A DNA stretch of 45,978 bases from Gammaproteobacteria bacterium (GTDB lineage: Bacteria; Pseudomonadota; Gammaproteobacteria; Steroidobacterales; Rariloculaceae). Under the pieces are notes generated by a model. The model was not told the origin of the DNA and did no database searches. It saw only the letters and a list, made by a program, of their open reading frames with translations. Numbering within the stretch: the first letter of the stretch is position 1; each line of letters begins with the position of its first letter. Below are positions 18,078 through 22,236 of the stretch, piece after piece. Location: assembly GCA_029243585.1 (NCBI GenBank), contig JAQWRR010000092.1, positions 1 to 45,978 of the forward strand, written 5' to 3'. The position numbers were made by a program, and so were the translations under genes.

Positions 18078-19352
18078 GTGCTAAGGTGCCCAGTCCAGAA
18101 ACAAGGGCATGTTCTATCTATGTTATTGAAAGGTAGAATTATTTTAATGATGGTGCTTGGCGCTGTGGCCGGGTTTGCGGCCTCTGCGGGCGGGTATTTG
18201 CTTAAAGAAGGCAATAGATATGCTGACTTTTCTTCTAGCTCTTTATCCGAAGACCATATTAGCCTTCTAGCCGAAGTATTTGAAAGCCTTCGTGATGAGT
18301 ATGTAGATGAGCTAGATGGTTCTGTGCTGATAGAAAGGGCTATAGGCGGAATGCTGGAAGGCCTTGACAGCCATTCCCGATTTTTGAGTGCTGACGATTA
18401 TGAGGGCATTCGGATAAGTGCAACCGGACAATATACTGGAGTTGGTCTTGATATCAGTCTTGAGGACGGTCAAGTAAAAGTTATTGCGCCGTTAGACGGG
18501 ACGCCAGCACAGCGGGCTGGAATTCTGTCGGGCGATATTGTGATGTCAGTCAATGATGTGCCTGTAGATATAGAAAATGCAGAAGCAACTGTAAACAGAA
18601 TGCGTGGGCAATCTGGAACATCAGTTACTTTAGAGTTAAAGAGAAAGGGGTTGGATGAAATATTACGCTTTGCTTTAACTAGGGCAGATATTCAGGTTAA
18701 AACAGTAAGATCTGAGCGCCTTGGTAGAGGTTATGGCTACATAAGGGTTATGGGTTTTTCAGACAGCACTGGGAAAGAACTTAAAGAAGCCTTTAGTGTT
18801 TTGGACGACGGCAATGAATTAAGCGGGATTGTTCTAGATCTTCGAAATAATCCTGGCGGTGTTTTAGATGCAGCTGTTGAAGTGGCAGACGCTTTTCTTG
18901 AACAAGGATTGATTGTGCGCGTTGGTGGACGCATGAAAGATGCGAGTTTTGAGAAACATGCAACACCAGGCGACACTTTCTCAGGGATAGATGTTGCAGT
19001 GCTGGTAAATAATGGATCTGCGTCTGCTTCGGAGATTGTTGCTGCAGCTTTAAGAGACCATGATCGTGCGCGCCTAGTTGGAGAACAGACTTATGGTAAA
19101 GGCTCCGTTCAGACGGTTATTCCGCTGGCAAATGGCGAAGCCTTAAAATTAACCACCTCGCATTATTTCACGCCTTCCGGAGATTCTATAAATGGCACGG
19201 GAATCATGCCGGATTTCGTTGTGGTAGAGCAGGATCCAAAGCGTCAGTATCGTGGTTTAGACAGCGATATTGAGTTAAGCGATGATAGCCAACTTCAAGA
19301 AGCGCTTCGTATCATCGGGTTCAATCATACTGAGAGTATCAACATGCTTTGA
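18078..19352 (+). CDS. ctpA: Carboxy-terminal processing protease (S41A family, PDZ domain)
   Basis: It has a PDZ region (GVGLDISLEDGQVKVIAPLDGTPAQRAGILSGDIV) and the S41 catalytic region (LDLRNNPGG, NNGSASASEIVAAAL, GEQTYGKGSVQ). The GTG start at 18078 has AAGGGGA upstream; ATG 18120 is an alternative. Confidence 0.88.
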   Translation: MLRCPVQKQGHVLSMLLKGRIILMMVLGAVAGFAASAGGYLLKEGNRYADFSSSSLSEDHISLLAEVFESLRDEYVDELDGSVLIERAIGGMLEGLDSHSRFLSADDYEGIRISATGQYTGVGLDISLEDGQVKVIAPLDGTPAQRAGILSGDIVMSVNDVPVDIENAEATVNRMRGQSGTSVTLELKRKGLDEILRFALTRADIQVKTVRSERLGRGYGYIRVMGFSDSTGKELKEAFSVLDDGNELSGIVLDLRNNPGGVLDAAVEVADAFLEQGLIVRVGGRMKDASFEKHATPGDTFSGIDVAVLVNNGSASASEIVAAALRDHDRARLVGEQTYGKGSVQTVIPLANGEALKLTTSHYFTPSGDSINGTGIMPDFVVVEQDPKRQYRGLDSDIELSDDSQLQEALRIIGFNHTESINML

Positions 19353-19411
19353 TATGGGCACCATCAAATGGGCCGCCAGAAAAAATACTTTGTATTAAGA
19401 CACGATAATAA

Positions 19412-19517
19412 GATGGAAATTCGTTTGGCTAGAACTGATGACTTAGGCTGAATAACAGCTATCTATAACGAAGCCATCAAAACAACAACAGCCACCGCTT
19501 TTATCAGTTTAGAATAG
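19412..19517 (+). pseudogene. Remnant of a GNAT (phosphinothricin-acetyltransferase-like) gene: first ~35 codons only, with a frameshift
   Basis: ATG 19412 gives MEIRLARTDEL, then the reading runs out of frame. The +1 frame from 19452 reads ITAIYNEAIKTTTATAFISLE followed by TAG (19515-19517). Together they resemble the M.IR.A...D...I..IYN..I....ATF N-terminus of GNAT enzymes. The remaining ~140 aa are absent. Confidence 0.5.
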
Positions 19518-19532
19518 TGCTGAGGAAAGCTC

Positions 19533-19895
19533 ATGCTTAAATTTTATAGTGTTCTTGGCCGATATCTTTATGCTAATAGGCTCATAATCTGGAGTCTGGC
19601 ATTAGGAGCTATTTTCGTATTTCTTGGGCTCTTGTTTTTTGGAGAGCCTTATGGAACTCAGGCTTTTTCGCTAATTTCAATTGCAATAATGTTGTGGATG
19701 TTGTGCCTGTTAGTGGTGGGACAGATGTTTTCTGCTCCCATAGATGAGATGAAAGTAGGCATAACGTTTATTGATAGAATGAGATATAAGTTGTCAAAAG
19801 CTGCTAGATGGATTATGGCGCTCATAATGACCGGGTTATTCATTTTTATGGCTTTTCTATCGTTGAAGACTATCGGAATGCTATTAAATGGGTGA
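19533..19895 (+). CDS. Hypothetical small integral membrane protein (3-4 predicted TM helices)
   Basis: 120 aa with a good SD (GAGGAAAG) 5 nt upstream of the ATG and hydrophobic segments throughout. I recognise no family. Confidence 0.55.
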   Translation: MLKFYSVLGRYLYANRLIIWSLALGAIFVFLGLLFFGEPYGTQAFSLISIAIMLWMLCLLVVGQMFSAPIDEMKVGITFIDRMRYKLSKAARWIMALIMTGLFIFMAFLSLKTIGMLLNG

Positions 19896-19903
19896 GGTGG
19901 GTT

Positions 19904-20140
19904 ATGAGTGTCATAATTAAATATTGTGGACGTTGAAATTATCTTTCAGCTGCCACCGGTCTGGAGGCAAAAATAAAGAAAAAATTAGACATCGACGTGA
20001 GGCTTATTGAGGGGAGCAATGGTGTATTCAATATTCTTTTTAATAGCGAATCTATTTTTTCAAAAGACAAGGAAGGGCGTTTTCCAGCTGACGAAGAAAT
20101 AATTAAGCTCCTCAAGATTGCGATGCAATCAAAGAGTTAA
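19904..20140 (+). CDS. SelW-like / Rdx-family selenoprotein; selenocysteine encoded by in-frame TGA at 19934-19936 (CGRU motif)
   Basis: The SD GAGGTGG (19894-19900) precedes ATG 19904. The translation is MSVIIKYCGR-U-NYLSAATGLEAKIKKKLDIDVRLIEGSNGVFNILFNSESIFSKDKEGRFPADEEIIKLLKIAMQSKS, ending at TAA 20138-20140. It has a CxxU motif at the N-terminus, Rdx-like downstream motifs, and a SECIS-like hairpin 15 nt after the UGA. It is absent from the ORF track because the TGA splits it. Confidence 0.72.
19951..19969 (+). promoter_or_regulatory. Candidate bacterial SECIS hairpin
   Basis: The fold is UGCC-A-CC[GGUCU]GG-A-GGCA: 4 bp, an A/A mismatch, 2 bp, and an apical loop containing GU. The GGUCUG string is identical to the apical region of the E. 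coli fdhF SECIS as I recall it, shifted 3 nt further from the UGA. Confidence 0.5.
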
Positions 20141-20153
20141 TGGAGTAAATGCT

Positions 20154-20678
20154 TTGTCAGAGCAAGCGCTAAATGAGAGGCTGATTACTGATAGTGTGTG
20201 TTTTGGGTGTGGTCCATCCAATAGCCAAGGGTTAAAGCTAAAGGTTAATTATGATCCGAATGACCCAGAAAAAATCATAGGGCTTTTTTTGCCGGATGCT
20301 TCTTTAATTGGATTTCCCGGCATTACACATGGCGGCATTGTTTTTACAGCTCTTGATTGCATTGCTTGCTGGTCGGGGATGATGCTAACAAAAGGGCCGA
20401 AGGCGCTTTGGCTCTTGAGATCGGCACAAGTCACATATCATCGTCCTGCGAGAGAAGGCGAACCTCTATATCTTTCAGCAACCATACCGAATCTAGCCGA
20501 AGCAGGAAGGGTTCAAACCGTCCACAATGAGGCAAGAAACGAATCAGGCGATTTATTAGTAAACGGCCAGTACAAGATTGTGCCGTTGAGCCCTAAGAAA
20601 TTCATGACTGTGTTAGGGGTTAAAAAACTGCCAGAAGGTTGGGCTTCCTGGTTGAAATCAACAGAGCGAAAGGTGTGA
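20154..20678 (+). CDS. Hotdog-fold thioesterase (PaaI/4HBT-like family)
   Basis: It has CFGCGPSNSQGLKL near the N-terminus and GITHGGIVFTALD, both typical of PaaI-type hotdog proteins. I prefer TTG 20154 (GGAG 8 nt upstream), because the tracked TTG at 20118 would overlap the selenoprotein gene. Confidence 0.75.
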   Translation: MSEQALNERLITDSVCFGCGPSNSQGLKLKVNYDPNDPEKIIGLFLPDASLIGFPGITHGGIVFTALDCIACWSGMMLTKGPKALWLLRSAQVTYHRPAREGEPLYLSATIPNLAEAGRVQTVHNEARNESGDLLVNGQYKIVPLSPKKFMTVLGVKKLPEGWASWLKSTERKV

Positions 20679-20902
20679 CAGAACAACGAGCGAGGCTAAG
20701 TCGTCAGAAATTTTTTCCAGTTTGGGGCGTTGCTGCTCTCCCTGCTGGGGTAATTATCGGCGTTATATTCGGCATAATATTTGGCGCTTTTTTTGGCGTG
20801 CCTGGTATTGGGGCTTCTGTTGGGGCAGCTATTGGGCTTTCGGTTGGCATAGCGCTTTTAGCTGCTGCAATAGTCACGGCAGCCAACAGAGCTAAGAAGT
20901 AG
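20675..20902 (+). CDS. Small glycine-zipper membrane protein (hypothetical)
   Basis: It has GxxxG-rich hydrophobic segments (GVIIGVIFGIIFGAFFGVPGIGASVGAAIGLSVGIALLAAA). A GTG start at 20675 overlaps the thioesterase stop (GTGTGA). The coding status is unproven. Confidence 0.45.
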   Translation: MTEQRARLSRQKFFPVWGVAALPAGVIIGVIFGIIFGAFFGVPGIGASVGAAIGLSVGIALLAAAIVTAANRAKK

Positions 20903-22008: not shown

Positions 22009-22236
22009 GCGTATTCATTGAGTGAAGATGAGTTGAGGTCTGCATTTGCAGGTTTCGGTGATGTTTCCTCCGTAAAAATTTTATCGGATCGGGAGACTGG
22101 ACGATCTAGGGGGTTTGGTTTCGTTGAGATGCCTAATCAAGAAGAAGGTGAAGCAGCTTTTGCATAATTAAACGGAACAGATGTTGGTGGGCGCGCATTG
22201 CGAGTAAATGAGGCTAAGCTTAGAGAGCAGAGTTAG
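22009..22236 (+). pseudogene. Decayed RRM-type RNA-binding protein gene (RNP2 strand missing, internal TAA)
   Basis: The frame reads AYSLSEDELRSAFAGFGDVSSVKILSDRETGRSRGFGFVEMPNQEEGEAAFA*LNGTDVGGRALRVNEAKLREQS*. RNP1 (RGFGFVEM) is intact. The N-terminal MNIYVGNL-type RNP2 is absent (TAG at 22006-22008, only 9 nt after the ppiC stop codon), and a TAA at 22165-22167 interrupts the domain. Confidence 0.65.

What the first reader, a model, noticed from the sequence alone, without database searches (positions are those of the whole stretch)
19904..20140. Uncalled selenoprotein gene: SelW-like/Rdx family with in-frame UGA at a CxxU motif and a SECIS-like hairpin
The ORF track shows nothing between the 120-aa membrane ORF (stop 19893-19895) and the hotdog thioesterase.

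Reading from ATG 19904, which is preceded by GAGGTGG at 19894-19900:
- The first ten codons give MSVIIKYCGR.
- TGA follows at 19934-19936.
- Another 67 sense codons continue in the same frame: NYLSAATGLEAKIKKKLDIDVRLIEGSNGVFNILFNSESIFSKDKEGRFPADEEIIKLLKIAMQSKS, ending at TAA 20138-20140.

The TGA falls exactly at the second redox position of an N-terminal C-G-R-U (CxxU) motif. The remainder has the features I associate with the Rdx (SelW/SelT/SelH) thioredoxin-like family:
- length of about 80 aa;
- a beta-strand immediately before CxxC/U;
- a G.NGVF.I strand;
- a C-terminal SK...GRFP...E motif.

Fifteen nt after the UGA the mRNA can fold as UGCC-A-CC[GGUCU]GG-A-GGCA (19951-19969). The apical GGUCUG is the same string as in the E. 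coli fdhF SECIS loop, one codon further from the UGA.

SelW-like proteins are known to be common selenoproteins in marine metagenomes, so the family is not new. This gene is nonetheless invisible to standard gene calling and implies Sec-decoding machinery in this organism.
Basis: partly seen in the sequence, partly recalled or inferred. Interest (0 to 1): 0.85.

Follow-up and report, generated by a model that had tools for sequence, protein, structure and literature searches.

The report
Uncalled SelW-like selenoprotein gene, confirmed
This is a real but ordinary gene for a small selenium-containing redox protein (SelW-like, Rdx family) in a marine gammaproteobacterium; gene callers miss or truncate it because its selenocysteine codon looks like a stop, and the family has been known as the commonest marine bacterial selenoprotein since 2005.

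Summary
In detail: ATG 19904, in-frame TGA 19934-19936, TAA 20138-20140, and a hairpin at 19951-19969. With U replaced by C, the 78-aa product matches Pfam Rdx (59 bits; cutoff 22.6) and TIGR02174 CXXU_selWTH across the TGA. All syntenic relatives (Ca. Rariloculaceae and allied marine MAGs) keep the TGA, frame and hairpin. So do 116 distant homologues retrieved with a pattern that left the hairpin unspecified. Cys homologues carry Cys in the TGA column.

Alone, the hairpin is thermodynamically unremarkable (z = -0.67). Family-wide it covaries strongly: 85% of cells pair against 68% when shuffled (0/500), and one pair shows five pair types. G25/U26 in the loop are nearly invariant. A covariance model built without the window's clade has its best window-wide hit exactly there. 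Cys-form homologues lack the helix (3 of 7 pairs against 6 of 7), so it is a SECIS.

TGA ends 14 of 38 long open frames in the window, so the code is not reassigned.

Untested: selA, selB, selC and selD are not in the window, and the rest of the genome could not be reached.

The family is well known, so interest is low. The practical value is correcting an annotation.

The parts
19894..19900 (+). Shine-Dalgarno-like GAGGTGG. It overlaps the TGA stop (19893-19895) of the upstream 120-aa membrane ORF and lies 3 nt before the start codon.
   Evidence: Read directly from the sequence. The core is kept in all syntenic relatives, with one G-to-A change at 19900 in L002.
19904..20140 (+). Coding sequence of a SelW-like (Rdx family) selenoprotein: 78 residues including Sec11, with stop TAA at 20138-20140.
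   Evidence: Translation. Pfam PF10262 at 59.1 bits over residues 3-70. TIGR02174 at 46.7 bits against a cutoff of 34.2. The frame is conserved in relatives. Clade dN/dS is 0.12-0.5.
19925..19936 (+). Redox motif C8-G-R-U11: TGT at 19925-19927 and the Sec codon TGA at 19934-19936.
   Evidence: TGA occupies the same column in 116 distant homologues and in Sulfurospirillum. Cys occupies that column in Cys-form homologues and in solved Rdx structures.
19951..19969 (+). SECIS hairpin. The 5' arm is 19951-19957 (UGCCACC), the apical loop is 19958-19962 (GGUCU), and the 3' arm is 19963-19969 (GGAGGCA). There are six base pairs and one A.A mismatch (19955/19965). The helix starts 14 nt after the UGA.
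   Evidence: It is in the MFE fold. It shows family-wide covariation. Loop positions G25 and U26 are nearly invariant. It is the best hit in the window for model R1 (19946-19974, 15.7 bits). The helix is absent from Cys-form homologues.
19533..19895 (+). Context only: a 120-aa predicted membrane ORF with no Pfam match, immediately upstream. It is conserved in the window's own clade and not beyond it.
20154..20678 (+). Context only: a 4HBT (hotdog) thioesterase gene, probable TTG start at 20154. It is absent from the L003-L005 relatives (L006 ends before this slot), so it is not an obligatory partner.

Best explanation
The region 19904-20140 encodes a 78-residue thioredoxin-fold oxidoreductase of the Rdx (SelW/SelT/SelH) family. 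The UGA at 19934-19936 is decoded as selenocysteine, giving a C8-x-x-U11 active site.

Inferred mechanism: while the ribosome reads the UGA, the hairpin at 19951-19969, which starts 14 nt downstream and presents G and U in its apical loop, binds the elongation factor SelB carrying Sec-tRNA(Sec). Sec is then inserted instead of translation stopping. The mature protein would cycle between a selenolate/thiol state and a Cys8-Sec11 selenenylsulfide, reducing a thiol-based substrate that is still unknown.

Shown here: family membership, a conserved in-frame UGA, Cys in the same column of homologues, a covarying hairpin found only in Sec forms, and TGA still used as a normal stop in the window.

Inferred, not shown: that this genome has the Sec machinery, that selenium is actually incorporated, and what the redox substrate is.
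For: 1. Family: PF10262 Rdx E = 5e-16, 59.1 bits (cutoff 22.6), residues 3-70, so the match runs across the TGA. TIGR02174 CXXU_selWTH scores 46.7 against a cutoff of 34.2. PDB relatives are Rdx-fold proteins (2LJK, 2FA8, 2OJL, 2OKA); in the two alignments printed (2LJK, 2FA8) the second Cys of CxxC aligns with the TGA position.

2. Conserved recoding: all syntenic relatives keep the start codon, ten codons, TGA, 67 codons and the hairpin. These are L001-L008 and L132-L137, at 80-97% amino-acid identity and from many marine assemblies. Two Sulfurospirillum homologues (36-43% identity) have C-N-Q-TGA in the same column. Of 120 hits to a pattern anchored on U-N-Y and the C-terminal FSK...RFP motif, 116 are in-frame CxxU genes.

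3. Cys at the same column in 7 library homologues. Fifteen others show W there; the one checked (P0022) has TGA in its DNA.

4. SECIS: seven helix positions at offsets 17-23 and 29-35. Cells paired are 85.0% against 68.2% when shuffled (0/500), and the covariation score is 0.459 against 0.146 (0/500). Sliding the 3' partner gives 28-51% pairing. Pair (20,32) reads CG 61, UA 16, GC 14, UG 8, AU 8. Loop G25 is present in 115/116 and U26 in 101/116, matching the G23/U24 requirement of the E. coli element (PMC8659212). Model R1, built without the window's clade, has its best window hit at 19946-19974 in exact register, 15.7 bits against 10.4 for the next hit. In the negative control, 22 Cys-form genes form a median of 3/7 pairs against 6/7, with MFE -5.6 against -10.3 kcal/mol.

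5. No code change: TGA ends 14 of 38 open frames of at least 200 codons in the window.

6. Purifying selection in the clade: dN/dS 0.12-0.5.
Against: - No selA, selB or selD gene and no tRNA-Sec lies in the 46-kb window or in 1.55 Mb of fetched loci. The rest of this genome could not be examined, so Sec-decoding capacity is inferred, not shown.
- The window's hairpin alone is not statistically unusual (z = -0.67).
- It carries an A.A mismatch at pair (21,31) that no other of the 116 unique family sequences shows. Even so, its stability of -7.5 kcal/mol is only the 33rd weakest of 117.
- The R1 E-value over the whole window is only 0.12.
- Within-clade substitution counts for the ten codons before the TGA are too small to prove translation of that part separately.
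- No conserved gene neighbour points to a substrate.
Confidence: 0.93

Rival explanations
1. Pseudogene: a Cys-type Rdx gene that acquired a TGC/TGT-to-TGA nonsense mutation and is no longer expressed as a full protein.
For: Gene callers find nothing, or only a stump, at this position. Sec machinery was not demonstrated for this genome.
Against: The TGA is fixed in every relative examined, across divergent marine populations and in 116 distant homologues. The frame stays open on both sides and dN/dS is 0.12-0.5. A covarying hairpin specific to Sec forms sits at the family-typical offset.
Confidence: 0.02
2. The real product is a truncated Rdx fragment translated from an internal start, as in public annotations: 59 aa beginning MEAKIKK, or 47 aa from GTG 19997. 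The ten upstream codons would be a separate leader peptide or untranslated.
For: NCBI and other sources annotate exactly such 47-59 aa proteins. The mechanical ORF list shows a 47-aa ORF at 19997-20140.
Against: The Rdx profile aligns from residue 3, so it includes the first strand and the CxxU motif that define the active site. A fragment would lack both. Of 103 library relatives, 78 are similarly truncated. In the loci whose DNA was examined, an in-frame TGA lies upstream of the truncated call, which points to a systematic calling artefact. The Shine-Dalgarno sequence, start codon and ten codons are conserved.
Confidence: 0.02
3. The UGA is read through as something other than selenocysteine. 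Candidates are Trp by a reassigned code (table 4 or 25), or Cys/Trp by near-cognate suppression in a lineage without canonical Sec machinery.
For: Fifteen database homologues are deposited with W at this column. The Sec machinery could not be checked.
Against: The W in the one example checked (P0022) is a gene-caller artefact on a TGA codon. TGA terminates 14 of 38 long open frames in this window, including both neighbouring genes. CxxW is not a redox motif, whereas true Cys homologues have CxxC. The hairpin carries the G/U loop determinants used by SelB.
Confidence: 0.03

Closest known systems
Bacterial SelW-like selenoproteins (Rdx family; Pfam PF10262, formerly PF05169; NCBIfam TIGR02174 CXXU_selWTH)
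   Same: About 75-80 residues. The N-terminal strand is followed by CxxU, with the conserved G-G-V-F and FSK...GRFP motifs. The Sec codon is followed by an in-frame SECIS hairpin. The habitat is marine. This was the most abundant prokaryotic selenoprotein family in the Sargasso Sea (48 genes; PMC1088965) and in GOS (427 Sec forms against 56 Cys forms; PMC2398784).
   Different: Nothing essential. Minor differences: the peptide after Sec is NYLSAATGLE where most members have NYxPxAxxLA, and the SECIS helix has an A.A mismatch at a position that is paired in 78% of members.
Escherichia coli fdhF SECIS, the reference bacterial element
   Same: A stem-loop inside the coding sequence just downstream of the UGA. 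The apical loop has the string GGUCUG, with G and U at the positions that bind SelB (PMC8659212).
   Different: The helix starts 14 nt after the UGA, not 11 nt. There is no bulged U; the window has a symmetric A.A internal mismatch and most family members have a continuous 7-bp helix. The loop has five nucleotides (or a triloop if G24.U28 pairs), not four.
NF041051 SelTWH_Campy, the Campylobacterota SelT/W/H (seleno)protein equivalog
   Same: The best-scoring NCBIfam model (72.5 bits). Sulfurospirillum members share the TGA column and a hairpin about 20 nt downstream.
   Different: The score is below the equivalog cutoff of 88, and identity is only 36-43%, so the window's gene is not a member of that equivalog group.
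Eukaryotic selenoprotein W and MIEN1 (PDB 2LJK)
   Same: The same Rdx fold family, with a CxxU/CxxC motif at the same place.
   Different: Eukaryotic SelW uses a 3'-UTR SECIS of a different architecture (PMC1088965, Figure 7 legend). MIEN1 has Cys in place of Sec and a C-terminal extension.

Membership tests
Rdx family (PF10262 / TIGR02174 CXXU_selWTH) | Profile-HMM score above the curated cutoff over the full domain | tested here: met
   PF10262: 59.1 bits against 22.6, residues 3-70 on profile positions 2-72 of 74. TIGR02174: 46.7 bits against 34.2.
Rdx family (PF10262 / TIGR02174 CXXU_selWTH) | CxxC or CxxU motif directly after the N-terminal strand, in the same alignment column as in family members | tested here: met
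   C8-G-R-U11. The column holds Cys in 7 homologues and TGA in 116. It aligns with the CxxC of 2LJK and 2FA8.
Rdx family (PF10262 / TIGR02174 CXXU_selWTH) | Thioredoxin-like fold | not tested
   Structure prediction accepts only exact window sequences, so the U-to-C protein could not be submitted. Only sequence similarity to solved Rdx folds is available.
Bacterial selenoprotein gene | In-frame UGA conserved in orthologues, with an open frame on both sides | tested here: met
Bacterial selenoprotein gene | Cys-containing homologues with Cys aligned to the UGA | tested here: met
Bacterial selenoprotein gene | SECIS stem-loop shortly downstream of the UGA, with a small apical loop containing G | tested here: met
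   Helix at 19951-19969 with loop GGUCU. Covariation is 0.459 against 0.146 (0/500 shuffles). It is the best hit of model R1 in the window. The helix is absent in Cys forms.
Bacterial selenoprotein gene | selA, selB, selC (tRNA-Sec) and selD present in the same genome | not testable with these tools
   None is in the window. Exact-match look-ups of proteins near the window's ends found nothing. Collection scans cannot be aimed at a single genome.
Bacterial selenoprotein gene | Selenium actually incorporated at the UGA | not testable with these tools
   This needs 75Se labelling or mass spectrometry.
NF041051 SelTWH_Campy equivalog | Score at or above the equivalog cutoff of 88 bits | tested here: not met
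   72.5 bits.
E. coli fdhF-type minimal SECIS | G and U in the apical loop | tested here: met
   G at 19959 and U at 19960. Family-wide, G is present in 115/116 and U in 101/116. The rule is taken from PMC8659212.
E. coli fdhF-type minimal SECIS | Upper stem-loop 11 nt from the UGA, with a bulged U in the 5' arm | tested here: not met
   The spacing is 14 nt and there is no bulged U. The window has an A.A mismatch instead.

The most novel reading that the evidence does not exclude
The Sec machinery of this lineage could not be inspected. The evidence therefore does not exclude that Ca. Rariloculaceae reads this conserved, SECIS-flanked UGA without a canonical SelA/SelB/SelD/tRNA-Sec set, for example by inserting Cys or another residue. 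The unusual A.A-weakened hairpin in this clade would then reflect a modified or selenium-tunable recoding mechanism.
Probability: 0.03. Interest if true: 0.75.

Novelty: new member of a known kind. Interest (0 to 1): 0.2.

Why it matters
Mainly as an annotation correction. The gene is real, but in public data it is either absent or recorded as a 47-59 aa stump. It also implies that this widespread marine gammaproteobacterial lineage uses selenium.

More generally, 78 of 103 representative library entries for this subfamily are truncated, and 15 carry a spurious Trp at the Sec position. The family shares one fixed-register SECIS: a 7-bp helix starting 14 nt after the UGA, with loop consensus R-G-U-Y-U. 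A single small covariance model combined with the Rdx profile could therefore recover these genes automatically.

None of this changes what is known about selenoproteins.

Tried and rejected
- Rfam, at gathering thresholds on the whole window and at permissive thresholds on 19800-20200, found nothing relevant. No bacterial SECIS family matched.
- Single-sequence folding does not distinguish the hairpin from shuffled sequence.
- The word-indexed protein search found only four close, truncated relatives.
- Alignment-driven locus searches failed because no block was conserved enough. A hand-written DNA pattern replaced them.
- A scan of the window for other in-frame TGA genes found no further candidate lying between long ORFs.
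- Neighbourhood clustering over 116 loci found no conserved partner gene. The largest clusters were spurious antisense ORFs.
- Attempts to reach more of this genome failed. Exact-match look-ups of the membrane ORF, TrpG and a HAD hydrolase returned nothing.
- A remembered E. coli SelD sequence used as a tblastn probe, and ARAGORN, found no selD or tRNA-Sec in 1.55 Mb of fetched loci.
- The glnA ORF looked short at 336 aa, but that length fits a type II glutamine synthetase (my knowledge of the family, not tested here), so it is not an anomaly.
- Stop-codon reassignment was considered and rejected, because TGA is used as a stop in the window.

Full report
**1. What is in the sequence**

- The upstream 120-aa ORF stops at TGA 19893-19895.
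- GAGGTGG lies at 19894-19900 and ATG at 19904.
- The reading frame gives MSVIIKYCGR, then TGA at 19934-19936, then 67 sense codons to TAA 20138-20140.
- The hairpin UGCC-A-CC[GGUCU]GG-A-GGCA occupies 19951-19969. It appears in the minimum-free-energy fold of both a 62-nt and a 141-nt context.
- Fourteen nucleotides separate the UGA from the first paired base.

By itself the hairpin is not remarkable: -9.2 kcal/mol, z = -0.67, and 46 of 200 shuffles fold as well. Nothing can be concluded from thermodynamics alone.

**2. Family assignment**

With U replaced by C, the 78-residue product matches Pfam Rdx (PF10262) at E = 5e-16 and 59.1 bits, against a cutoff of 22.6. The match covers residues 3-70, so it runs straight across the TGA.

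NCBIfam TIGR02174 (CXXU_selWTH) scores 46.7 against a cutoff of 34.2. The Campylobacterota equivalog NF041051 scores 72.5, below its cutoff of 88.

The only solved structures with sequence similarity are Rdx-fold proteins: MIEN1 2LJK, Atu0228 2FA8, 2OJL and 2OKA. In the two alignments printed (2LJK and 2FA8), the second Cys of CxxC aligns with the TGA position.

**3. Orthologues**

The organism is a marine gammaproteobacterium of, or near, Candidatus Rariloculaceae.

Syntenic loci were recovered from several sources:
- two NCBI MAGs;
- the GTDB representatives UBA6522 and FRAM MAG_33;
- several ENA and Logan metagenome assemblies.

All of them keep the Shine-Dalgarno core, a start codon (ATG or GTG), the ten codons, the TGA, the 67 codons and the hairpin. 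Amino-acid identity ranges from 80 to 97%.

In five of six assemblies inspected, no gene is called in this slot. NCBI calls a 59-aa stump.

Within the clade, dN/dS for the ORF is 0.12-0.5. Third-codon positions change at 0-1 of 15 sites between the UGA and the end of the hairpin, against 10-12 of 53 further downstream. That trend fits an RNA constraint, but the counts are too small to be significant on their own.

**4. Distant homologues and the Sec/Cys column**

An exhaustive HMMER search with the 67 post-TGA residues returned 100 representatives. In the retrieved set of 103 proteins:
- 78 are truncated calls (median 57 aa);
- 15 carry W at the Sec column;
- 7 carry Cys;
- 3 carry another residue.

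The W is an artefact in the one case I checked. P0022 reads C-V-Q-W-N-Y as deposited, but its DNA has TGA there, and the gene does not translate to the deposited product under table 11.

Two Sulfurospirillum genomes, one of them the cultured strain DSM 9755, have C-N-Q-TGA in the same column at 36-43% identity.

**5. The SECIS test**

I scanned 185,579 species-representative genomes with a DNA pattern anchored only on U-N-Y and the distant C-terminal F-S-K-x4-R-F-P motif. The whole hairpin region was left unspecified. Of those 120 hits, 116 are in-frame CxxU Rdx genes from many phyla.

Positions below are counted from the T of TGA as offset 0. The window's helix occupies offsets 17-23 and 29-35.

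| Pair (offsets) | Fraction paired, 116 unique sequences |
|---|---|
| (17,35) | 0.59 |
| (18,34) | 0.70 |
| (19,33) | 0.97 |
| (20,32) | 0.94 |
| (21,31) | 0.78 |
| (22,30) | 0.98 |
| (23,29) | 0.99 |
| (16,36), just outside the helix | 0.15 |
| (15,37), just outside the helix | 0.05 |

Further results:
- Pair (20,32) shows CG 61, UA 16, GC 14, UG 8 and AU 8.
- All five variable pairs exceed 2000 of 2000 shuffles.
- The formal count used 110 sequences that exclude the window's clade. It gives 85.0% of cells paired against 68.2% shuffled (0/500). The covariation score is 0.459 against 0.146 (0/500). Pairing falls to 28-51% when the 3' partner is slid by 1-3 columns.
- In the loop, G25 is present in 115/116, U26 in 101/116 and U28 in 106/116.
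- Synonymous positions 23, 26 and 29 are far more constrained than coding requires.
- G25 and U26 correspond to G23 and U24 of the E. coli fdhF element, described as the conserved apical-loop positions (PMC8659212). That review names U17 and G23 as the SelB contact sites.

A covariance model of the hairpin alone (29 positions, 7 pairs) was built without the window's clade. Run with filters off over both strands of the whole window, its best hit is 19946-19974, in exact register with the UGA. That hit scores 15.7 bits and the next best 10.4. The window-wide E-value is 0.12, which is modest. The relevant question is whether the motif lies at one pre-specified position, and it does.

**6. Negative control**

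The same pattern with TGC in place of TGA gave only 71 matches in the whole collection, and 23 of them are genuine CxxC genes.

| Measure | Cys forms | Sec forms |
|---|---|---|
| Helix pairs formed (median, of 7) | 3 | 6 |
| Local MFE (median, kcal/mol) | -5.6 | -10.3 |
| GC content of the 60 nt | 0.60 | 0.57 |

The third-position constraints at offsets 23 and 26 are also absent in the Cys forms. The helix is therefore tied to the UGA and is not a by-product of the peptide it encodes.

One caveat: the Cys forms belong to somewhat different subclades, with a partly different peptide in this stretch.

**7. The window's hairpin within the family**

Its energy is -7.5 kcal/mol against a family median of -9.5, making it the 33rd weakest of 117.

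Its one peculiarity is A.A at pair (21,31), seen in no other sequence of the set. The sister sub-clade has G.A there. More distant gammaproteobacterial orthologues share the upstream S41 protease gene; L058 and L084 have a perfect 7-bp helix, CGCCUCC[GGUCU]GGAGGCG.

About 22% of family members also lack a standard pair at this position, so the mismatch is probably tolerated.

**8. Alternatives**

- *Stop-codon reassignment* is excluded. TGA ends 14 of 38 open frames of at least 200 codons in the window, including both neighbouring genes.
- *A pseudogene* is contradicted by fixation of the TGA across populations and phyla, and by the hairpin specific to Sec forms.
- *An internally initiated fragment* would lack the first strand and the active-site motif that the profile aligns.

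**9. What could not be shown**

The window contains no tRNA and no selA, selB or selD. Its genes are housekeeping: gyrB, glnA, ntrBC, secB, grx, hemXY, ubiD/E/B, hslVU and the trp operon.

I could not reach other parts of this genome. Exact-match look-ups failed. No selD or tRNA-Sec lies in the 1.55 Mb of fetched DNA.

Sec-decoding capacity is therefore inferred from the gene, not demonstrated. The redox substrate is also unknown, and no neighbour is conserved across the family.

**10. Comparison with what is known, and verdict**

SelW-like proteins with a CxxU motif were the most abundant prokaryotic selenoprotein family in the Sargasso Sea (48 genes; PMC1088965). The same held in the Global Ocean Sampling data, with 427 Sec forms against 56 Cys forms, enriched in marine samples (PMC2398784). 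A dedicated NCBIfam model exists for the family.

The window's gene passes every family test that could be run. It differs from the E. coli fdhF SECIS only in spacing (14 nt against 11 nt) and in lacking the bulged U.

This is a new, mis-annotated member of a well-known kind.

Noticed in passing
L011:1066-1308 (protein P0022), plus 14 other library proteins listed: Public protein libraries hold SelW-like proteins with Trp at the Sec position (C-x-x-W-N-Y). In the one checked, the codon is TGA, so the W comes from a gene call made under a TGA=Trp code. A further 78 of 103 relatives are truncated calls that begin after the TGA.
   Followed up: partly
window 19533-19895 (+): A 120-aa predicted membrane protein with no Pfam match. 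Its TGA stop overlaps the ribosome-binding site of the selenoprotein gene. It is conserved only in the window's own clade. In the more distant orthologous locus L058, the S41 protease gene directly precedes the SelW-like gene instead.
   Followed up: partly
window 19352-19533 and 20154-20678, compared with L002, L003 and L001: Small-gene content around the selenoprotein gene varies between close relatives. A 163-aa GNAT acetyltransferase gene sits between the S41 protease and the membrane ORF in L002 and L003 but not in the window or L001. The 4HBT thioesterase gene is missing from L003-L005 (L006 ends before this slot).
   Followed up: no
window 20639-20902 (+): An 87-aa glycine-rich, strongly hydrophobic ORF (GVIIGVIFGIIFGAFFGVPGIGASVGAAIGLSVG...) with no Pfam match. 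It overlaps the end of the thioesterase gene and is called as a 75-78 aa gene in all relatives.
   Followed up: no
window 22018-22167 (+): A 49-aa ORF with an RRM-like sequence (RGFGFVEM). It lies where relatives L001 and L003 carry a 149-150 aa gene (DUF6174; RRM_1 as well in L003) and where L002 has nothing. It may be a remnant or a variable small gene.
   Followed up: no
window 19955/19965, compared with 116 family sequences: The window's clade is the only one in the sample with a purine-purine mismatch (A.A; G.A in the sister sub-clade) at SECIS pair (21,31). Synonymous sites around it are almost frozen within the clade.
   Followed up: partly
TGT-Cys forms were not scanned.
   Followed up: partly
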